DNA of 63,618 nucleotides, filler included, from Basidiobolus ranarum (taxonomy: Eukaryota): NCBI GenBank assembly GCA_040143965.1. It is 34 parts of 34 records of this genome, joined end to end, with 100 filler letters (N's around TTAATTAATTAA, not from the genome) between each part and the next. Parts side by side here need not be neighbours in the genome. Positions count along the whole stretch, not along the records: positions 56,247 to 58,015 come from JASJQH010004375.1; 33 more parts are not named here. One strand, written 5' to 3'. This document shows positions 1,885 through 63,618 of the stretch, piece after piece. The notes under the pieces are model-generated. The model was not told the origin of the DNA and did no database searches. It saw only the letters and a list, made by a program, of their open reading frames with translations. Both the position numbers and the translations under genes were made by a program. Position 1 is the first letter of the stretch. The number at the start of each line of letters is the position of its first letter.

Positions 1885-2478
1885 CGTAAATCCAGACGTA
1901 TTGAGGGCCAAATGTTTGGTGTTGGTTTCCGAAGCCCTAGAGGAGGTAGGGTTGAAACAGGGATATCTCTTTATAGTATTCCTTGGAAAAAAAAGCAGTG
2001 CCTAGAGCAGATAAACAAGGTACAGAAAGATGCGGAGGAATTGGCTACTTCTATTCAGCGATATGTAGACATCTTTTTGCCAGACATAAAGCAAGACTGG
2101 TGCTGTATACAGATGGAGTATCAAACCCCGACCTTACATCGTGATACCTCGCTGCCGAGTTTCTTTGCTACCAAGGATTACTCCACTAAGATTCATGTAG
2201 ACAATGATAAAACTCAGTATGCCATTGGTGTGAGTTTTATTGATGGGAATGTTGAAGAGCAATACTTCGTTATTCCCAAATATAAAATAGCCGTTCCGTT
2301 GAGTCACAACTTATTATGGTTTTGGCGACCTTCCATTGATGCACACGGGACTACCTCCGTTAATTCTAAAACAAAAGGACATCGATATACCGCAGTTTTC
2401 CAAATCCCAGGAAGACTGGGTAAGAAAAGGACGTATGAAGAGGAGCCCCAGGCATCAACGACTACTCGAGCTCCGTGA
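1885..2478 (+). CDS. TET/JBP-like 2OG-Fe(II) dioxygenase, 5'-truncated by the contig edge
   Basis: Frame open from the contig start (RKSRRIEGQMFGVGFR); HxD = HVD (2194-2202); FVIPKYKIAVPL strand; distal His in DAHGT (2344); Arg in RYTAVFQ (2383); CpGs retained. Confidence 0.75.
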   Translation, partial: RKSRRIEGQMFGVGFRSPRGGRVETGISLYSIPWKKKQCLEQINKVQKDAEELATSIQRYVDIFLPDIKQDWCCIQMEYQTPTLHRDTSLPSFFATKDYSTKIHVDNDKTQYAIGVSFIDGNVEEQYFVIPKYKIAVPLSHNLLWFWRPSIDAHGTTSVNSKTKGHRYTAVFQIPGRLGKKRTYEEEPQASTTTRAP

Positions 2479-5645: not shown

Positions 5646-6455
5646 CATCGTGGTGCTGGCGCTTATATTTGAGGCGAAGAGACAGATTTAATTGAATCAA
5701 TTGAAGGAAAGCAGGGAAAACCTAGATTGAAGCCCCCGTTTCCTGCTGATGTAGGTCTTTTTGGTTGCCCTACCACCGTATCTAATGTTGAAACTGTTGC
5801 TGTCGCACCTACCATTTGTAGACGTGGTGGTAGCTGGTTTGCAGGATTTGCCCGTGAACGAAACAGTGGTAATAAATTATTTTGTATTTCTGGACATGTC
5901 AATAATCCTTGTACCGTCGAAGAAGAGATGTCCATCCCATTAAAAGAACTTATCGAACGCCACTGTGGTGGTGTTCGCGGTGGATGGGATAATCTTTTAG
6001 CCATTATCCCTGGTGGTTCCTCTGTTCCACTTCTTCCTAAAAACATTTGTGAAGATGTTCTTATGGACTTCGATTCATTACGTGATGTTCAGTCAGGTCT
6101 TGGTACTGCGGCAGTTATTGTCATGGATAAATCCACTGATCTTGTCCGTGCAATTTCTCGTCTAGCTGCTTTCTATAAGCACGAGTCTTGTGGACAATGT
6201 ACACCCTGTCGTGAGGGTACCAGCTGGATGGCCAACATGATGACTCGATTCGAGCATGGTCAAGCACAGATTGACGAGATTGATATGATCGAGGAACTAT
6301 CTAGACAAATTGAAGGACATACCATTTGTGCATTGGGTGATGCTGCTGCTTGGCCTGTTCAAGGATTAATTCGTCATTTTAGACCAGACATTGAGAAGAA
6401 AATAGCTCAATACAAGCATGGATTAGAGCAGAATGTATCCGCTGTTCAATTCTAA
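5646..6455 (+). CDS. NDUFV1: Mitochondrial complex I 51-kDa flavoprotein subunit, 5'-truncated; in-frame TGA at 5670-5672 (possible pseudogene or base error)
   Basis: [42 protein letters not shown] and [14 protein letters not shown] motifs. Confidence 0.93.
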
Positions 6456-9140: not shown

Positions 9141-9405
9141 GAAATGTTTCATAAATGTTGAAATTAGGTAAATAGCAACTCATTATTTAGTAGCTAGTTT
9201 ATTCATATTCTGATTATTTAGCACTCAATTCTGTTATTCAAAAACGTGTGTTTATTGCTCTAATTGATAGAAATATCAATTAGATCACTTTTACCAATTT
9301 TCACTNNNNNNNNNNNNNNNNNNNNNNNNNNNNNNNNNNNNNNNNNNNNTTAATTAATTAANNNNNNNNNNNNNNNNNNNNNNNNNNNNNNNNNNNNNNN
9401 NNNNN

Positions 9406-18796: not shown

Positions 18797-19662
18797 TAAA
18801 CTTAACTAATAACTTAATAATTCAAATTGTGCCTGAGCTACAGGCTTGGTCAAGATTCCAGCAATCATTTCTTCATTGGGTCAATAGACAAGTTCATTAA
18901 TATTGTTCTCTATTGCTTCTTTGACAATATGATGCCTGATATCTATATGTTTTGTTCATGATTGAAATGTAAGGCTATTAGCTAATGAAATACAACTTTG
19001 ATTATCTTCAAATACAGCATCAGCATGTTTTTGCATGCATCCTTAGTCCAAAAGTAACTTCCTTAAACAAATAGATTCTAGTGTAGAAGCAGAGGTAGCC
19101 ATGTTCTCTGCTTCTGTAGTGGAAAGTGCTATGGTTGATTGCTTCTTACAATATCAGGTAGGCTCCCAAGGATTGTAATTACTAAATCATCATCATTTAG
19201 AGATGCTCCAAATAGATGAGTGCTGTTCTGCTATAGCTTTTATCCAATTTATATGATTAAATATAGAATCGTCAAAATTCATCTGAATTGAGAATAAATT
19301 TTGCCAAGATAAAGCCTGTTAGCCAAACTTGCAGTCTTATATAGTCCCTCCAGTGTTTCCCAAGCAGTTTGGACATTTTTGGCCTAGTGTATGTGCTTTA
19401 ATTGAGAGTCTCTCAGATTTAGACAAAGTGAAAAGAGATTTTCCTCTGCTTCTTATTAAAGGTAAGAATAGCTATTGGTGGTCTCTTAAGCTCTGTTTCT
19501 TCTCCTGCAACAAATCCCCAAAGGTCTGTGTCCTCTAGCATCATATGCATTTTGAACTCTCAAAGATGAAAGTCTTTGCCATCAAACTCCTCTGTGGATG
19601 CAAAAATGTCAGTAATAGTTCTGGTAGATATTCTTTCAACAGCTAGCTTGGGGCTCATAACC
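18797..19662 (-). mobile_element. Copia remnant: PBS (19651-19662), gag fragment, RNase H fragment
   Basis: Minus strand CA|GGTTATGAGCCC; FDGKDFHL gag motif; EDNQS and TKHIDIRHH RNase H motifs. Confidence 0.8.
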
Positions 19663-24110: not shown

Positions 24111-25103
24111 GAGGAGAATATTGAATTTGTTAAGAAACACTGAGAAGTGTTGAGATCCTAAATTTGTTAAGACACACACTAAACCAAAAAGTTCAGTTAA
24201 CTTTATTTATACTTTTTGATTGCAAAGTGAATTAGTCAGTGCCAAGATATTAGATGACTAATCCGATACAAGATAATGTGATTGGATAGATATATAGATA
24301 GATAAGTGAGTCATGCATCAGCTNNNNNNNNNNNNNNNNNNNNNNNNNNNNNNNNNNNNNNNNNNNNTTAATTAATTAANNNNNNNNNNNNNNNNNNNNN
24401 NNNNNNNNNNNNNNNNNNNNNNNATGGGAAGAATTGGGCTTGCCCAAATTTTCCAAAGGTCAGATCTCTGACCTTTGACATCCCTGAGGAAGAGACACTG
24501 TTTCCAACATTATAACACAGCCTATTCTAGCTTTCATAATTTTTATGAATTTAGAGAAATTTCTCAGATATTGAATATTATTTTAATTTTTGTAAATTTG
24601 CAAGTCTCTGGGAAATCAAAGTGCAGATGTTTTCTTTCAGACTCTGAAAGCTTCTAAGTATTGTAATATTACCATAAGTAAACTGGCTACTTTTTAGCTT
24701 CATAATCCATAAGTTACTTATTGAGAATATCCTTTATATACTATTGAGAGTAATGAAGAAACTTGATTAACATTATGAATTAGTAAAATTTGTAAGAACT
24801 TTGTGAGGTTTACAAAATTAAATAAAGAAGAAAGTGAATATTGGATATATCATAATTTTATTACAAATCTAGAAATATTGAAAGTGTTGATAAAAGCTTT
24901 CTGCTCATGATTTACAAATATTGACATATTACTAGCACTAAGCTCCATACATGTTTATTTATATAAAAAACACAAAATAGTCATTGAATAAACTTTTGGG
25001 CTATGTAACCTGCACAGGACAAAGGTGCTACAAATTTAAAAAGTTGTATAAAATGCAATGTATTTGTAACCAAGGTATTCCAAATAATAGAAATAAAAGC
25101 ATT

Positions 25104-25950
25104 GCGCACTACAGAACCCTCTATAATTTCAACAACTTACTAACTTTTGGGCTGCATATAACTGGAAACATGCCTTTATGCATTGCCTCTGATTTTATAG
25201 GGGCTACATTGGTGGTAGACTGTGAATGTGCACTACAAACATGAGCATCTTTCTAAAAACATTTTTACTTCCATAGTGCATATAACTATTACCATGTCAT
25301 TATATTGTATCTCTGACTTTACAGGAATCATGCAGACCACTCATCCCTTGATGCGCACTACAAACATAAGCCTCTTTTTAGAAACATATTTACTTTTGGC
25401 GTGTGTATAACTGATACCACATCATTATTTTTTACCTTTGACTTTATAGGAGTTACAAAGACCACTCATCCCTGAACGCACACTACAAATGTGAGCATCT
25501 TTCTAAAAACTTGTTTACTTTTGGCATGCATATAACTGATACCATGTCATTATTTTTCCCCTATGATTTTATAGGAGTTATGAAGACCGCTCATCCCTTG
25601 ACATGCACTACAAAAGTGAGCCTCTTTTTAAAAACATATTTACTTTTGGCATGCATATAACTGATACCATGTCATTATTTTTTACCTTTGACTTTATAGG
25701 AGTTACAAAGACCGCTCATCCCTTGACGCGCACTACAAACGTGAGCCTCTTTTTAAAACATATTTACTTTTTGTGTGCGTATAACTTAGACCATGTTATG
25801 ATATTTTTTACTTTTGAATTTAAAGGAGTTACAAAGACTTCTCATCCCTTGACGCGCACTACAAACGTGAGTCTCTTTTTAAAAACATACTAACTTTTGG
25901 CATGCATATAACACATACCCTGTAATGATATTTCACTTTTGACTTTATTT
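25104..25950. repeat. 125-bp tandem repeat, ~7 copies
   Basis: CACTACA starts at 25107, 25231, 25356, 25481, 25606, 25731 and 25857. Confidence 0.92.
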
Positions 25951-33409: not shown

Positions 33410-33482
33410 CGACCCGGGTGGGGGTCGAACCCACGACTTTCTCCTCCGGAGGGAGACACTCTTTCCACTGAGCTACAGGGCC
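33410..33482 (-). tRNA. tRNA-Arg(CCG)
   Basis: Cloverleaf GGCCCTG-TA-GCTC..GAGT-G-TCTCC CTCCGGA GGAGA-AAGTC-GTGGG TTCGACC CCCAC-CCGGGTC-G; T run shortly downstream. Confidence 0.9.
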
Positions 33483-35358: not shown

Positions 35359-35566
35359 TGTTGAAATTAGCATTGCCTAAACACCTATATAGTCATATAT
35401 AGCTTAGTACTTAGTTATCTTATAATTCACTAAGATATTATCAATTATTTTCAATTGGAACTTACTTGCAATATTTTTACCAACTTGGAAGTTCTCAGAT
35501 ATATAGATTTTTCAAACTTGAGCTAGAAGCCCCAGACTTTGCACACATGCTCCTGGGACCTTCCTT
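35359..35566 (+). mobile_element. LTR family L5 fragment inserted in the LINE
   Basis: TGTTGAAATTAGCATTGCC start; related pieces at 39411-40148 and 52508-52987. Confidence 0.7.
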
Positions 35567-43155: not shown

Positions 43156-44109
43156 GAACGTACCTTCGAACCCTGCAGAAAGGCAATGAAGGATGCTGGT
43201 GTTGTTGCTGCTGACATCAATGAAGTCGTCCTTGTCGGTGGTATGTCTCGTATGCCTAAGGCTATTGAAACTGTCAAGGAGTTGTTCGGTAAAGAGCCCG
43301 GAAAGAGTGTAAACCCTGATGAAGCTGTCGCCATTGGTGCTGCCATTCAAGGTGGTGTCCTTTCTGGATCCGTCACTGATATTCTTCTTTTGGATGTTAC
43401 TCCTCTTTCCCTTGGTATTGAGACTTTGGGTGGTGTCTTCACTCGTCTTATCAACCGTAATACTACCATTCCTACCAAGAAATCTCAAGTATTCTCCACC
43501 GCCGCTGATGGTCAAACTCAAGTTCAAGTCAAGGTATTCCAAGGTGAACGTGAACTCTGCCGTGATAACAAGCTTCTTGGTGACTTCAACTTGACTGGTA
43601 TTGCCCCTGCTCCTCGTGGTGTTCCTCAAGTCGAAGTTTCCTTCGATATTGATGCTGATGGTATCGTTAATGTTGGTGCCAAGGACAAGGCCACTGGACG
43701 CGATCAATCCATGTCCATCGTTGCCTCTTCCGGTTTGAGCAAGGACGAGATTGAGAACATGGTCAAGAACGCCGAACAATTCGCTGAAAGTGATGCCAAG
43801 CGTAAGGCTGCTATTGAAGCTACCAATAACGCTGAATCTGCTATCAATGAAACCGAGAAGCACATGAATGACTTCAAGGAACAAATTGATCAACAAGAAG
43901 CCAGCAAGCTCAAGGAACAGATTAACAAATTACGTGAGTCCGTTGCTTTAGGTGAAGAGGCTGATCCCGAAGAACTCCGCAAGGGTACTAACGAGCTTCA
44001 ACAAGCTTCACTCAAGTTGTTCGAGGCTGTGTATAAGAACCGTGCTGCTCAAGATGCCAACACCAACAATTCCGAGACTGTTGTTGACAACGAGGAGAAG
44101 AAAAACTAA
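43156..44109 (+). CDS. SSC1: Mitochondrial Hsp70, C-terminal half (5'-truncated)
   Basis: [57 protein letters not shown] (mtHsp70-type). Confidence 0.95.
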
Positions 44110-50637: not shown

Positions 50638-50748
50638 AATGGGGGTGCTAATGAGTGGCCTAGTCTGGGGACAATACTGAGTAATTGAAAGATAGTAGTA
50701 CTAAGATTCCCTATCTACAAGCAGTTCATTGGATTCCCAGTTATTTAT
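50638..50748 (+). repeat. Inverted repeat, left arm (111 bp perfect)
   Basis: Exact reverse complement of 52297-52407. Confidence 0.95.
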
Positions 50749-50925
50749 GCACTTGTTAGTAATATTTAGAATGATGCACTATTTTTGGCTATCAAATAAA
50801 TTGTCAGTATTTCCTACAATCGGCTATTTCAAGAGAAAATGATAGTAAATGCATTTATTGATTGTCTGCAAGGTATATGCTACGGTATATTGCTGTGCTA
50901 CGCTCATAACCTAGTTGATATAAAT

Positions 50926-51863: not shown

Positions 51864-52296
51864 GTTTGAATTGGTTGAGATGAGTTGGAGGTAAATGACA
51901 AAGAGTTGTTTGACTTCTAGTTGAAATAGTCAAAGTGATGATTGTTATTGTAACTAATTTCTGCTTTGTCGCTCATTTTATACTCGATTCGAGAGCAAGA
52001 CTCAAACAAGGAATTCAAATCAACAGACTAAGGTGTGAACCCCCCACACATTCAACTTTCCAGCACAATATCAAGCGCAAGTAGTCACTCCATACCTTTC
52101 AGTGCATCTAAAATCAGTCCTCATGATATGTCCCCACAACACGAGCTTGAGCATGCACATTTGATTTTCTTTGATTCGGTCATACTTCAGCTTGTTGACT
52201 TCTAATATCATAGATTCTATCTCTCAATTTATTACTACTCAAATATGTATGCGTATTTCATACTTGAAAAAATACTCTACTAACGAATACGAGTGG

Positions 52297-52407
52297 ATAA
52301 ATAACTGGGAATCCAATGAACTGCTTGTAGATAGGGAATCTTAGTACTACTATCTTTCAATTACTCAGTATTGTCCCCAGACTAGGCCACTCATTAGCAC
52401 CCCCATT
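52297..52407 (-). repeat. Inverted repeat, right arm
   Basis: Exact reverse complement of 50638-50748. Confidence 0.95.
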
Positions 52408-56246: not shown

Positions 56247-56401
56247 AACATAGCAACCCACTGCTATTCCCAAGACATATATTAGTTAGATCTGCTCTGC
56301 TTATATATCCTGCTTAAACAGTTCTAAGATTCTGCACTTAACTGTTTCTTTGGTTCAATAAAGTTCAAGACTTTTTATCCACTTTTCTCTTGGACACAAC
56401 A
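56247..56401. mobile_element. LTR family L4 end
   Basis: Ends CTTGGACACAACA; reverse complement of 23876 onward. Confidence 0.72.
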
Positions 56402-57449
56402 GGTAGGTTGTTTCTTTGAGTTCCAAGAAATAGCTCCATTACAGCAAAGAAATAAGTACCCTGTTGCAGACCTCCTGTCTTCAACATCTCTTCCCCAATT
56501 TGCATCTGAATATCTCATCAGATCAAAGTTTGATCCAGAATATGTGTATTTTAAGCACAGATCCACAGTACCTTTCAAATATCTGAAAATCCACTTAACT
56601 GCTATGATTTGATCAGATCCATAATTTTAAAGATATTGACAAATAACTCCCACAGAATATGCAATATCTGGCCATGTTCCAATCATGATATACACCAAAC
56701 TACTAACCATAGATTGATAAGAGAATCTCTGGCTTTCATTTGAATCTAAAAACATCTGATTTGAGCCATACTTGGTCAAGTTAAGATTTGTCTCCATTGT
56801 GGTCAATACTGGATTACAGTCTTCCATTTTAAACTTCTTTAGTATATCTAGGATATACTTAGACTGGTTTAAAGTTACTGTTTTGGTAGCTCTATCTATC
56901 TTAACTTGGATTCCAAGATAGTATATCAGTTCACCAAGATCAGTCATTTTGAATTTGACTAATAAGCTGGATTTGGTTTTCTCCAAAGTCTTCAAGTCAT
57001 TGGCTGCTATAATTGGGTCATCTACATATAAGGCTAATAAAACTAGGTTTGTCTTATCTGGCCTGAAGTAGATTCTTTAGTCAGCATCACTGTTTGGAAT
57101 TTGAGTGTTTCCAAAAAAGTGTTTCTATTACAAGCTCTCAGAGATTGTTTTAAGCCATAGAATGTTTTCAGGAGTTTGCAAACTTTTTTAGGGTTTTCTG
57201 GGTCCACATATCCATCTGGCTGGTCCATATAGATCTCCTCAGCAAGCTTACCATTCAAAAAAGCAGCTTTAACATCCATTTCATCTATCATCAACTCATA
57301 TTTAGCTGCAATTGCTTAAATCAATCTAATCGATTTAAACTTTGCTAAAGGAGCAAAAGCTTCTGTATAATCTATTCCTTGTGTTTGGGAATAGCCTTTG
57401 GCTACTAGTCTAGCCTTGTACCTTTTTATATTGCCATCAGAGTTGTAAT

Positions 57450-57731
57450 TGTTGAAATTATTTAGGGAGAAATATTGGTCTGGCCAGGATTTGAACCGGG
57501 GACTTCCTTCACTCTAGCAAGGTGCTCTAACCACTGAGCTACCAGTCCTTGTATGCTATGCCTATAATGCTAGGGAACCTTAACCTAGTCTGTCAATGTA
57601 TGGTACTTTTGCATTTCAACTATACAAGCAACTGATTGGCCTTAGACTTTGTGTTCAGATGCAGTCACCATACTCTATATTTTCCTCTTTGGGAATTACT
57701 GCTTGCACCACAAGTCACCAGACTTTCAACA
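57450..57731 (-). mobile_element. 282-bp solo LTR containing a tRNA-like sequence; 5-bp TSD GTAAT
   Basis: TGTTGAAA...TTTCAACA ends; GTAAT at 57445-57449 and 57732-57736; removing the insert restores the copia RT frame. Confidence 0.88.
57476..57548 (-). ncRNA. tRNA-derived sequence inside the LTR (A and B boxes; imperfect cloverleaf)
   Basis: GGACTGG TAGCTCAGTGGTTAGAGC A CCTTG CTAGAGT GAAGG AAGTC CCCGG TTCAAAT CCTGG CCAGACC A. Confidence 0.8.
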
Positions 57732-57813
57732 GTAATTAATTTTAAACACCCAGTGGCAGCCAATTGATTTTCTACCATGAGGCAAGTTGGTGAAAATTCA
57801 AGTGTGATTATCA

Positions 57814-58015
57814 CCCTAACAGAAATTTGAGGATTGTTATTGTAGGAAAACCATCACAATTTTAATCCATTTCGGATTGACCATTTACTTACCATCATAA
57901 AATGGTCAAGTTAGATTTGATTTTAATCAATTTTTTCAGTTTCAGGAGTGAAATTTCAAGATCTTGCAAAATAGTTGCGAATGATTGGCTAAAATCTCAG
58001 AGAACTATGGATCAA
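57814..58015 (-). mobile_element. CACTA-like 'left' terminus
   Basis: Starts CCCTAACAGAAATTTGAGG. Confidence 0.88.
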
Positions 58016-58115
58016 NNNNNNNNNNNNNNNNNNNNNNNNNNNNNNNNNNNNNNNNNNNNTTAATTAATTAANNNNNNNNNNNNNNNNNNNNNNNNNNNNN
58101 NNNNNNNNNNNNNNN

Positions 58116-59688: not shown

Positions 59689-59761
59689 TGCCTTCTGCCG
59701 GAATTGAACCAGCGACCTTCTGCTTACTAGGCAGACGCTCTGCCAACTGAGCCAAGAAGGC
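59689..59761 (-). tRNA. tRNA-Thr(AGT)
   Basis: Cloverleaf GCCTTCT..GCTC/GAGC..TCTGC CTAGTAA GCAGA..GCTGG TTCAATT CCGGC AGAAGGC A, followed by TTTTT. Confidence 0.95.
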
Positions 59762-59983: not shown

Positions 59984-61751
59984 GGAGCTTCCCAACATTT
60001 CACAAATGAAAAATATTAGTTTGTGGATTATGAAGAAATCCCAGTTGTAAAGGTTTTCACAGGAGATGATTGCATATTGGATGCTATTGGAATGGGAACA
60101 ATTCAAGTCAATTTAACTGGAGCTTCTGAAGAGAAAGTATATACTTTAAAGGATGTACTACATTTTCCAGATATTGCCAAGAATTTAATATCTATATGCA
60201 ATGCCATCTTAGAAGGGCTAAAATTCAATTTTGATAAGTCAGGATGCACCATTGCTGATCAAAATGGGAATTACTTAGCTTCAGGAGAAAAGGATCAAAA
60301 CTTATACAAACTTACATATAATCCAAGAGGTTTATGTGTAAATATAAGTTATTCTAATCAAGAAACTGCTCAATTGTGGCATAAGAGATTTGGCCATATT
60401 AGATTTGATTATTTGAGCAAAATGATCAAAAATTGCCTAATTTCTGGAATTCAAATTAACCCCCCAACCAGAATGGAAATTTGTGAGGGTTGTATATATG
60501 GAAAACAAGCCAGGCAACAATTCAAGAGCTCTGGTCTGATCAAATCTGTCAAAAATTGGATCTAATTCATTCTGATTTGTGTGGATCTATGCAAAATTTT
60601 TCATTAGGTGGAAATGATATTTAATCACATTCATTGATGATTATACAAGATACACTTGGGTCTACTTTATGGAAAGAATAGATGAAGCTCTCTCTATCTT
60701 TAGAGACTTTAAAACACTGGTGGAGACTGAAACTTGAATTAAAATCAAGAAAATAGGTACTGAGAATGGTGGAGAATATACTTCAGCAATATTTATGCTC
60801 TTTTGCATAGTTCATGGAATTAAGCAAGCAACTACTGCCCCCTATTCATCTCAACAAAGTGAAGATGCCAAAAGAGCTAACAGGACTATGATAGAAATGG
60901 CAAGATCTATGACAAATGCACAAATTTTATCTTAAAACTTTTGGGTGGAATATGTTGCTACAGCTGTGTATCTGAGAAATAGGAGTTTTACTAGAAGTCT
61001 GTCTAACTCTACACCATATCAAGGTTGGTTTGGAGTCAAACATGATATAAAACATTTGAGGATCTTTGGATGTATTGTTTGTGTCAAAATTATGACCAAA
61101 AATTGGTCTAAATTTGATCCAAAAAGTAAGAAATACATATTTCTGGCTTATTGTACTTAAACTAAGGCCTACAGACTCTATGATACCAAAATTTCCAAGT
61201 TAATCAAGTCCAGGGATGTTTTGTTTAATGAAAATGAAAAATACTCATCCAAAATAACCTCATATGATGACAAAAATCAATTTTCTCCTGATCAAATCAT
61301 TCAAATTGATTCAAACCAAAACAAAAAAGAAAATAGTATTCCTGTGGACCCTCCAACAAAAATTTTGCCTACTGAAGTGCCAATACAATGCCAGAAGTTG
61401 TAGTACCTTTATCCAAACCAGGAGATCAAATTGGATCAGAAATAGCCTTGATTACTATATCAATCAGTCCCAAAATTGGGCCTATGCCTGCACAGCTCAA
61501 ATACATGAACCCCAGACTGTAAAAGAGGCCTTGAATGGCCCTCACATGAAATTTTGGAGATCTGCCATGGCTGATGAATATCAGGCTTTGATTGATAATC
61601 AAGCTTGGATTTTAACCAACTTACCTGATGATAAAAATCAATTGGCTGCAAATGTGTGCTTGAAGTTAAATACAACTCTGATATCAATATAGAGAGGTAC
61701 AAGACTAGACTAGTAGCCAAAGGCTATTCCCAAACACCAGGAATAGATAAT
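59984..61751 (+). mobile_element. Ty1/copia pol remnant (protease tail, GAG-pre-integrase, integrase, RT start)
   Basis: LKDVLHFPDIAKNLIS, LWHKRFGH, CEGCIYGKQ, HSDLCG, TENGGEY, ERYKTRLVAKG. Confidence 0.93.
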
Positions 61752-62579: not shown

Positions 62580-63618
62580 CAGAAGTTGAAGAAGAAGACA
62601 ACAGTTTTGTTATCAACTGTATGTTATTGGCCAACATTAGTCCACTCATAATACTTACTGTAAAGGAATCAGCTTTGATTATTGAGGAGTGGAGAGTTCA
62701 ATTCAATCTTAGCAACCAGGTGTTTATTGGTTTTCTTACACTCTTCCCACAGTTGCTGGGCAACTATTGCTTGCCACAGACCTGGTACAAGTTGAAAACA
62801 CTTGTCAATCATATGACTTATAATCCTTCAGTAATTAAAGTACCTTCATGTCAAAATGGATGTTTGGCTTTCACTGGTGATCTGAAAAATCTGAAGTCAT
62901 ATACTGTTTGCACACCATTGGCAATCACTGAATCAGGTAAATATTGTTTGTATTTAGCTTACATACCATTGATTCCCTGTCTTAAAGTTTTGATGAAATC
63001 ACCAAAATATAGATCATTGATCTAATACCAAAGTACTCACCATAAAGTTGATGGTATTACTAATGTACTTGATGGATATCACTACCAGAATCTGAAAAGT
63101 CAAGGTTACTTTGAGAACATATATGATCACACATTTGTGTTGGCTCTGGATGGTTTCTCACTAAACAAATATACTATTGGAAAGGCTTGCTGGCTAATAA
63201 TTTTAATCAACTTAAATCTTCCTCCTTCTGAACAGTACAAGAGTCATAATATTTTGAAACTATCAATCATATCTGGAACTAAATCATCAGTGCTTATAGA
63301 TAACTTCTTGGAGCCTTTGATTGTGGAGTTTGAATGGTTACCTAATGTGGTTCAGATGGGTGAATATTTTATTAAAGCTAATATCACTGTATGTATTGGT
63401 GACACTGCTGCCATCAGTAAACCTGGAGGTTTTGCAGGCACAATGCACTATCTTGCTGTAGATTGTGAAAATCAAACAAGTTTTCTCTAACCGGCATAAG
63501 CATTGCACCTTTTGACCTTGAATCTTAGCACTCAATGTCTGACTATTCTCCCCATGTTCTCTTTGGTTTTCCCGAGGTTAGATACAATTGATAGAGCTAC
63601 AAAGCCCCCCAATTCCAG
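62580..63618 (+). mobile_element. CACTA/EnSpm (Transposase_21/Tnp2) transposase catalytic region, decayed
   Basis: CQNGCLAFTG; LALDGF; W..ILINLNLPP; DNFLEPLIVEF; IGDTAAISKPGGFAG. Confidence 0.88.

What the first reader, a model, noticed from the sequence alone, without database searches (positions are those of the whole stretch)
57445..57736. Solo LTR carrying a complete tRNA-like Pol III cassette
Seen: a 282-bp insert with 8-bp inverted ends (TGTTGAAA/TTTCAACA) and a 5-bp TSD (GTAAT) splits a copia RT; removing it restores ...WVFKINYNSDG.... On the minus strand it holds a 73-nt tRNA-shaped sequence with an A box (TAGCTCAGTGG) and B box (GGTTCAAATCC). The cassette ends 26 bp before the LTR end, with no T4 terminator in between. 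Stems have mismatches, and the nominal AGA (Ser) anticodon lacks the long Ser variable arm, so it is not a normal tRNA. Known (from recall): non-autonomous TRIMs can carry small-RNA-derived LTRs (Cassandra with 5S; Helenus with tRNA-like sequence, 5-bp TSDs in fungi). Inference: this is a Pol III-driven LTR retroelement family in this lineage, transcribed from the tRNA through the internal region and mobilised by copia or gypsy enzymes.
Basis: partly seen in the sequence, partly recalled or inferred. Interest (0 to 1): 0.8.

Follow-up and report, generated by a model that had tools for sequence, protein, structure and literature searches.

The report
Solo LTR carrying a tRNA-like promoter
A 282-base leftover end of a small retrotransposon, carrying a decayed tRNA copy that could act as its own promoter, sits inside a dead copia element; this kind of element (Helenus) is already described in other fungi, so it is most likely a new host record and not a new mechanism.

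Summary
A 282-bp insert (57450-57731) has TGTTGAAA/TTTCAACA ends and a perfect 5-bp duplication (GTAAT). It splits a decayed copia reverse transcriptase. A paralogous copia copy in the window (61593-61751) has the empty site with one pentamer. Uninterrupted proteins place both flanks at one residue. The minus strand carries a 73-nt tRNA-like sequence (Rfam tRNA 50.2 bits, three mispaired stem positions, intact A and B boxes). It ends 26 nt before the element end, and no T4 run follows inside the element.

This layout matches the LTRs of Helenus, the tRNA-bearing TRIMs that Kojima described in 2024 (PMC10886601). [quoted passage not shown]

The window is a chain of 34 short contigs. One housekeeping gene is 95% identical to Basidiobolus ranarum, a lineage not among the reported Helenus hosts.

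I found no second copy anywhere I could search, and no whole genome or reads were available. Family status, two-LTR copies and Pol III transcription therefore remain untested.

Verdict: a probable Helenus-type solo LTR, a new member of a known kind, of modest interest.

The parts
57445..57449 (.). Left copy of the 5-bp target-site duplication (GTAAT)
   Evidence: The paralogous empty site has one pentamer.
57450..57731 (-). 282-bp solo LTR. Orientation is taken from the tRNA-like sequence. On the minus strand it reads TGTTGAAAG...TAATTTCAACA.
   Evidence: 8-nt perfect inverted ends. Absent from the paralogous copia copy.
57549..57731 (-). 183-nt 5' (U3-like) part of the LTR, upstream of the tRNA-like sequence
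   Evidence: No similarity to anything else in the window.
57476..57548 (-). 73-nt tRNA-like sequence, nominal anticodon AGA, class I shape, three mispaired stem positions
   Evidence: The free-energy fold is not a cloverleaf and is no more stable than shuffles (z 0.49).
57531..57541 (-). A box (TAGCTCAGTGG)
57487..57497 (-). B box (GGTTCAAATCC)
57450..57475 (-). 26-nt tail between the tRNA-like end and the LTR end (U5-like). It has no T4 run. Its last 11 nt (TAATTTCAACA) are shared with the ends of other repeats in the window.
57732..57736 (.). Right copy of the target-site duplication (GTAAT)
56402..57444 (-). Host: decayed copia pol fragment (RVT_2 and downstream) with stops and frameshifts
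57737..57813 (-). Host: the copia reverse transcriptase stretch just upstream of the insertion (...LPHGRKSIGCHWVFKIN). It is cut at about 57814 by another abundant repeat.
61593..61751 (+). Paralogous copia copy on another contig with the uninterrupted (empty) site. The single pentamer is at 61669-61673.

Best explanation
This is a solo LTR of a Helenus-type element. Helenus is a short, non-autonomous LTR retrotransposon (TRIM) whose LTR carries a tRNA-derived Pol III promoter.

Shown: the 282-bp unit integrated as one piece into a copia reverse-transcriptase sequence and made a 5-bp duplication. Its LTR-type ends match those of other mobile elements of this genome. The tRNA-like sequence lies in the 3' part of the unit with intact A and B boxes and a degraded cloverleaf.

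Inferred by analogy with Helenus and Cassandra:
- In the parent element, Pol III started at the tRNA-like sequence of the 5' LTR.
- It read through the 26-nt tail (no T4 run) into a PBS, a short internal region, a PPT and the 3' LTR.
- The RNA was reverse-transcribed and integrated by the proteins of a resident copia element. Copia integrases give 5-bp duplications.
- Recombination between the two LTRs then left this solo LTR.

The solo LTR can no longer move. If its promoter still fires, the transcript would run on the sense strand of the dead copia to the first T run (T4 at +191, T6 at +287 from the tRNA-like start).
For: 1. Clean insertion with a perfect 5-bp duplication and an empty paralogous site.

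2. TG...CA ends. The terminal 11-mer TGTTGAAATTA occurs 7 times in the window against 0.14 expected, and 0 of 100 shuffles reached 7. At 9156, similarity to other copia copies stops exactly at the TG. At 35359 and 52988, similarity between copies starts at the TG and their outer flanks differ. These are therefore ends of mobile units.

3. tRNA homology of 50.2 bits, against 69.3 and 56.3 for the two apparently real tRNA genes in the window. The A and B boxes are intact. Each of three stems has one broken pair.

4. The layout matches the Helenus LTR consensus sequences that I read by eye in parts 1 and 4 of the supplement of PMC10886601:
- They start TGTTG/TGTTA and end ...ACA.
- The tRNA-like sequence is on the sense strand, roughly 10-50 nt from the 3' end.
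- One family (Helenus-2_PTrit) ends ...gtaatttcaaca; here the end is ...ataatttcaaca.
- The LTR lengths in the Puccinia species rows I read are 106-284 bp, and every one of those rows has a TSD of 5.

5. The paper reports that nominal tRNA-Ser-AGA predictions in rust genomes are mostly Helenus copies (Table 2). The loop CTAGAGT seen here also occurs in Helenus-9_PSt, -6_PTrit, -2_UVF, -6_CroRib and -15_CroRib (by eye).

6. No sign of a secondary SINE insertion. The tRNA-like part has no body, no A-rich tail and no duplication of its own.
Against: - Only one copy is known. There is no second copy in the window or in metagenome, prokaryote-genome or viral contig collections with two exact patterns. 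The protein database also gave nothing when searched with a 51-aa frame from the element. None of these sources is expected to hold this organism's DNA, so this is weak evidence, but the family is unproven.
- No two-LTR copy, PBS or PPT has been seen, so the TRIM status (short, non-autonomous) is assumed.
- The LTR orientation rests on the tRNA-like sequence alone, because both ends read TGTTGAAA.
- The absence of T4 runs on the sense strand is not significant: 38% of composition-matched shuffles also lack one.
- The tRNA-like sequence does not fold into a cloverleaf by free energy. This fits a promoter-only relic but equally fits plain decay.
- No expression data.
Confidence: 0.6

Rival explanations
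1. Solo LTR of an ordinary autonomous, or large non-autonomous, LTR retrotransposon whose LTR happens to contain a tRNA-derived piece as a passenger. Transcription would be by Pol II and the tRNA-like part would have no role.
For: Kojima notes that 'not a few' Repbase LTRs contain tRNA-like pieces and that only the short ones are called Helenus. No internal region is available here. The tRNA-like stems are degraded.
Against: The A and B boxes are intact although all three stems carry mismatches, which suggests the promoter was retained. The position and orientation of the tRNA-like part match Helenus LTRs. No other LTR-like repeat in the window resembles the 183-nt upstream part.
Confidence: 0.2
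2. An ordinary LTR into which a tRNA gene fragment or a tRNA-derived SINE inserted once, in this copy or its immediate parent. The tRNA-like part would then be a one-off and not a family trait.
For: Kojima proposes this route for the origin of Helenus. Only one copy is available for inspection.
Against: There is no duplication, tail or SINE body around the 73-nt unit. The unit is gene-like: no extra CCA follows the discriminator base. The whole 282 bp integrated as one piece with clean ends.
Confidence: 0.08
3. Not an LTR at all, but a small DNA transposon (MITE) or a tRNA-derived SINE.
For: It is a 282-bp unit with 8-nt perfect inverted ends and a tRNA-like sequence with Pol III boxes.
Against: For a SINE, the tRNA head should be at the 5' end. 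Here it occupies positions 184-256 of 282, there is no A-rich or simple-repeat tail, and the ends are inverted repeats. For a MITE, TG...CA with a 5-bp duplication is the LTR/integrase signature (established knowledge). The inverted repeat is only 8 nt. The same 11-nt end is found on other repeats that sit among copia and gypsy remains.
Confidence: 0.05

Closest known systems
Helenus (tRNA-bearing TRIM; 'TRIMp3'), fungal families from Pucciniales and Agaricomycetes. Source: Kojima 2024, Biology 13:119, PMC10886601. I read the abstract, the Results, Discussion and Methods 2.1 sections, the tables, and supplement parts 1, 4 and 9.
   Same: - TGTTG...ACA ends and a 5-bp duplication.
- LTR length within the 106-284 bp range of the Puccinia species rows I read.
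- The tRNA-like sequence is on the sense strand in the 3' part of the LTR, with conserved A and B boxes.
- A nominal anticodon that does not fit the tRNA body (Ser-AGA without the long arm).
- Solo LTRs with 5-bp duplications are reported as common.
- Inserted among copia elements, which are the proposed helpers.
   Different: - The host appears to be a Basidiobolus, outside the reported host range. The main text has no mention of Basidiobolus, Zoopagomycota, Mucoromycota or Entomophthor-, and the supplement has none of Basidiobolus, Conidiobolus or Rhizopus.
- No consensus that I read is similar outside the tRNA-like part and the last dozen bases.
- Most rust LTRs have a T4 run just after the tRNA-like part, by eye. 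This one has none.
- Only a solo LTR is known here.
Cassandra (TRIM with a 5S rRNA sequence in the LTRs, plants). Known to me from Kalendar et al. 2008 as cited and summarised in PMC10886601 (passage); the original paper was not read.
   Same: A non-autonomous LTR element whose LTR carries a Pol III gene-type internal promoter. It is the only lineage with transcription shown, according to Kojima.
   Different: The promoter is 5S-derived, not tRNA-derived. The host is a plant. A conserved Pol III terminator lies inside the LTR.
tRNA-derived SINEs (SINE2)
   Same: A tRNA-derived A/B-box promoter, non-autonomous, and a source of false tRNA predictions.
   Different: SINEs carry the tRNA head at their 5' end and have a tail. 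They have no inverted TG...CA ends, and LINE enzymes insert them with duplications of variable length. None of this fits here.

Membership tests
[quoted passage not shown] | The LTR contains a tRNA-derived sequence with box A and box B | tested here: met
   Rfam tRNA 50.2 bits. ARAGORN agrees. A box at 57531-57541 and B box at 57487-57497.
[quoted passage not shown] | LTR-type termini and a 4-6 bp target-site duplication (5 bp in fungi) | tested here: met
   TG...CA ends and GTAAT on both sides. Empty paralogous site. TSD is 5 in every Puccinia species row read.
[quoted passage not shown] | Two LTRs flanking a PBS and a PPT, whole element shorter than about 1 kb (TRIM) | not testable with these tools
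   Only a solo LTR is present. No genome or reads were available. No second copy was found.
[quoted passage not shown] | Repeated family: several copies with different flanks that all carry the tRNA-like part | tested here: inconclusive
   One copy in the 60.7 kb of sequence in the window. Nothing in the other collections, which are not expected to hold this organism.
[quoted passage not shown] | Sequence homology of the LTR to a named Helenus family | tested here: not met
   Three exact motifs of 16-22 nt from the element were not found in the supplement. By eye, only the tRNA-like part and the last 11-12 nt resemble any consensus in parts 1 and 4. Parts 2, 3, 5-8 and 10 were not read. Helenus is defined by structure and is thought to be polyphyletic, so this does not exclude membership.
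TRIMp3 (TRIMs driven by a Pol III promoter) | Transcription starts at the small-RNA-derived promoter | not testable with these tools
   No RNA data. Kojima states that this has not been shown for Helenus either.
tRNA-derived SINE | tRNA head at the 5' end, a 3' tail and no terminal inverted repeats | tested here: not met
   The tRNA-like part is at positions 184-256 of 282. The ends are 8-nt inverted repeats. There is no tail.
Functional tRNA-Ser gene | Long variable arm, intact stems and a T-run terminator just downstream | tested here: not met
   Class I shape with three mispaired stem positions. No T4 run for 190 nt. The two apparently real tRNA genes in the window have T5 within 6 nt.

The most novel reading that the evidence does not exclude
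Basidiobolus, an early-diverging fungus outside the Dikarya, holds a live family of Helenus-type Pol III-driven TRIMs that is homologous to the rust-fungus families. The supporting detail is the shared odd class-I 'AGA' pseudo-anticodon loop CTAGAGT and the ...TAATTTCAACA end. If so, fungal Helenus would be far older than the roughly 130 million years proposed for Pucciniales, or it has moved between fungal phyla.
Probability: 0.15. Interest if true: 0.55.

Novelty: new member of a known kind. Interest (0 to 1): 0.3.

Why it matters
If a family stands behind this copy, it extends the Helenus/TRIMp3 class to a fungal lineage where none is reported. It would also explain part of any excess of "Ser-AGA" tRNA predictions in those genomes, which is a practical point for tRNA annotation. 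And it would give a second, distant fungal group in which to ask two questions: whether the tRNA-like promoter drives retrotransposition, and whether these elements arose once or many times. On its own, a single solo LTR inside a dead copia has no evident effect on the host.

Tried and rejected
- Whole-genome search: no genome is held for this window.
- Earlier findings of this scan: nothing by sequence, by place or by words. The two yeast Ty notes returned do not bear on this element.
- Exact-pattern scans gave 0 matches each: a 22-nt piece of the anticodon arm in metagenome and prokaryote-genome contigs, and a 24-nt piece spanning the B box to the tail in metagenome and viral contigs.
- Protein database with the 51-aa open frame of the element's upstream part: no candidate.
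- Exact motifs of the element in the Helenus supplement: none. FASTA line wraps could hide matches.
- The idea that reverse transcription read through a primer tRNA and copied it: rejected. The sequence is gene-like, with no CCA beyond the discriminator base, and it lies inside the LTR ends and not beyond them.
- The idea that the other two tRNA hits (59689-59761 Thr-AGT, 33410-33482 Arg-CCG) are further Helenus copies: rejected. They score higher and are followed by T5 terminators. They lie on other contigs, and I saw no TG...CA unit around them.
- T-run avoidance on the sense strand as a sign of Pol III read-through: not significant.
- Taxon check with the protein atlas on the NuoF-like fragment: uninformative, only bacterial fragment clusters.
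- Attempt to show that the other TGTTGAAATTA-ended repeats are LTRs with a PBS or PPT: the contigs are too short (about 1.77 kb), and no two-LTR unit lies within one contig.

Full report
**What is in the sequence**

- GTAAT lies at 57445-57449 and again at 57732-57736.
- Between them is a 282-bp unit that starts TGTTGAAA and ends TTTCAACA, a perfect 8-nt inverted repeat.
- ARAGORN finds a 73-nt tRNA, nominal Ser(aga), at 57476-57548 on the minus strand.
- The Rfam tRNA model scores it at 50.2 bits (gathering score 29) and flags three non-canonical pairs, one each in the acceptor, anticodon and T stems.
- The two other tRNA hits in the window score 69.3 and 56.3 bits.

Read in the tRNA orientation, the unit is 183 nt, then the tRNA-like sequence (positions 184-256), then 26 nt. 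The A box TAGCTCAGTGG starts at position 191 and the B box GGTTCAAATCC at 235. No run of four T occurs on that strand. The first T4 comes 191 nt after the tRNA-like start, in the flank. A free-energy fold of the 73 nt is not a cloverleaf and is no more stable than shuffles (z 0.49). So homology to tRNA is clear, but a working tRNA is unlikely.

**It is a real insertion**

The flanks belong to a decayed copia pol gene on the minus strand, with Pfam RVT_2 in three pieces and stops and frameshifts. Three results show that the 282-bp unit was inserted into it.
- The two flank translations...LPHGRKSIGCHWVFKINY and [21 protein letters not shown]..., end and begin in the same alignment column against three uninterrupted copia paralogs from the window.
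- The same holds against the closest external relative, P0121, which is 64-81% identical to the four flank pieces aligned to it and reads ...[24 protein letters not shown]... without a break.
- At DNA level, another copy of the same copia family on a different contig (61751-61590, reverse strand) is colinear with both flanks. It has one pentamer, GTATT, where the filled site has GTAAT-insert-GTAAT.

I kept the flanks as separate references throughout and made no joined sequence.

**Context**

The window is not continuous genome. It consists of 34 pieces of 1767-1782 bp in descending length, joined by N44-TTAATTAATTAA-N44 linkers. That is a chain of short contigs from a fragmented assembly. The element's true neighbourhood is 56247-58015:
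- another repeat at 56251-56401;
- the copia fragment at 56402-57813, which holds the insert;
- an abundant repeat from 57814 to the contig end.

Twenty-four of the 34 contigs, including this one, are linked by shared repeats. Copia and gypsy remains are frequent.

A mitochondrial-type HSP70 fragment (43156-44106) is 95% identical to a Basidiobolus ranarum protein and 83% to one of B. meristosporus. The next best hits are Mortierellaceae at about 79%. The assembly is therefore most likely from a Basidiobolus. This rests on one gene, and its contig is not in the repeat-linked group.

**Why an LTR**

TG...CA ends with a 5-bp duplication are the mark of integration by an LTR-retrotransposon integrase (established knowledge).

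The 11-mer TGTTGAAATTA, which is the plus-strand start of the unit and so its 3' end in the tRNA orientation, occurs 7 times in the window against 0.14 expected. None of 100 shuffles reached 7.
- At 9156, similarity to other copia copies stops exactly where the 11-mer begins.
- At 35359 and 52988, two copies of one repeat start at the 11-mer and their outer flanks differ.

So this is a shared end of several mobile families of this genome, as expected if they use related integrases. I could not show a PBS or PPT next to any of them, because no contig holds a two-LTR unit.

**Comparison with what is known**

Kojima (2024, PMC10886601) described Helenus, TRIMs whose LTRs carry a tRNA-like sequence. 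I read the abstract, Results, Discussion, Methods 2.1, the tables and supplement parts 1, 4 and 9.

Reported hosts:
- rust fungi (113 families in Pucciniales);
- a few Agaricomycetes;
- several animal phyla;
- Selaginella.

Features of the fungal families:
- They make 5-bp duplications.
- They are thought to be moved by copia elements.
- They often survive as solo LTRs.
- They account for most of the inflated tRNA-Thr-AGT, Ser-AGA, Ser-TGA, Ala and Pro predictions in rust genomes (Table 2).

The consensus LTRs I read begin TGTTG or TGTTA and end ...ACA. They carry the tRNA-like part on the sense strand, roughly 10-50 nt before the 3' end (by eye). LTR lengths in the Puccinia species rows I read run from 106 to 284 bp.

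The present unit fits on every one of these points. Some details match by eye:
- TAGCTCAGTGGTTAGAGCACC is identical in Helenus-3_MLP, -1_MAec, -6_CroRib and -15_CroRib.
- The loop CTAGAGT occurs in at least five rust families.
- Helenus-2_PTrit ends ...gtaatttcaaca.

Outside the tRNA-like part and the last dozen bases I saw no similarity, and three exact motifs from the element were absent from the supplement. The string CTAGAGT occurs 13 times in the supplement file, though not all of these need be in tRNA-like parts. Much of this likeness may be ordinary tRNA conservation.

**What is not shown**

No second copy was found:
- none in the 60.7 kb of sequence in the window;
- none with two exact patterns in the metagenome, prokaryote-genome and viral contig collections;
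- none with a 51-aa frame in the protein database.

The whole genome and sequencing runs were not available. These negatives are weak, because none of the sources is expected to hold Basidiobolus DNA.

The TRIM status, the PBS and PPT, Pol III transcription and the identity of the helper are inferences from the Helenus/Cassandra model. Kojima states that Pol III transcription has not been shown for Helenus either. The absence of T4 runs on the sense strand fits read-through by Pol III but is not significant (38% of shuffles).

**Rivals**

- An LTR of an ordinary, possibly autonomous, element with a passenger tRNA piece cannot be excluded without internal sequence (about 0.2).
- A one-off tRNA or SINE insertion into an ordinary LTR is unlikely. 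The 73-nt unit has no tail, body or duplication of its own (about 0.08).
- A SINE or MITE reading fails on the position of the tRNA-like part, the ends and the duplication length (about 0.05).
- A copy of a primer tRNA made during reverse transcription is rejected. No CCA follows the discriminator base, and the sequence lies inside the LTR.

**Novelty and verdict**

The class is known. The host lineage appears to be new.
- The main text of the Kojima paper has no mention of Basidiobolus, Zoopagomycota, Mucoromycota or Entomophthor-.
- Its supplement has no mention of Basidiobolus, Conidiobolus or Rhizopus.
- Its survey was seeded from Repbase and extended only to relatives of the seed hosts.
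- My four literature searches returned no other paper describing tRNA-bearing LTRs in fungi. From those searches I read only the listings, plus passages of PMC13570524, which merely cites Helenus.

I rate it a new member of a known kind, with interest 0.3. My confidence that it is a Helenus-type solo LTR is 0.6.

Noticed in passing
whole window; linkers such as 1783-1882 and 58016-58115: The window is a chain of 34 contigs (1782 down to 1767 bp, sorted by length) joined by N44-TTAATTAATTAA-N44 linkers. Neighbouring pieces are not neighbours in the genome.
   Followed up: yes
299, 9156, 35359 (+); 25134, 40978, 52988 (-): The 11-mer TGTTGAAATTA starts at least four different repeat families, 7 hits against 0.14 expected. 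It is probably a shared integrase-recognition end of the resident LTR elements.
   Followed up: partly
19650-19662 (-): GGTTATGAGCCCC follows directly after ...TTTTATCA. It looks like a copia-type primer-binding site complementary to the initiator-tRNA anticodon arm. Kojima reports the same type for most rust Helenus and their copia partners.
   Followed up: no
59689-59761 (-) and 33410-33482 (-): tRNA-Thr(AGT) at 69.3 bits and tRNA-Arg(CCG) at 56.3 bits. Each is followed by a T5 run within 6 nt, so they look like real genes and not retroelement relics.
   Followed up: partly
43156-44106 (+) and 43156-43929 (-): A mitochondrial-type HSP70 fragment, 95% identical to a Basidiobolus ranarum protein. 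The opposite strand of the same stretch matches Pfam NAD-GH (PF10712). From recall, that family is a known antisense artefact of HSP70 genes.
   Followed up: partly
1885-2475 (+) and 63026-63487 (+): A Tet/JBP-like 2OG-Fe(II) oxygenase fragment (PF20515) and a tnp2/DUF1258 transposase fragment. From recall, this pairing belongs to the Kyakuja-Dileera-Zisupton transposons, which are best known from basidiomycetes. They lie on separate contigs here.
   Followed up: no
25103-25948: A tandem array with a period of about 125 bp (77-83% between copies). It begins right at a ...TAATTTCAACA end.
   Followed up: no
50638-50756 and 52289-52407: The two ends of one contig are 98% identical inverted repeats of 119 bp. 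This is either a long-TIR element or an assembly fold-back.
   Followed up: no
5673-6452 (+): A NuoF / 51-kDa complex I subunit fragment on a contig that shares no repeats with the others. The nearest atlas clusters are bacterial fragments, so it could be a nuclear mitochondrial-type gene or contamination.
   Followed up: no
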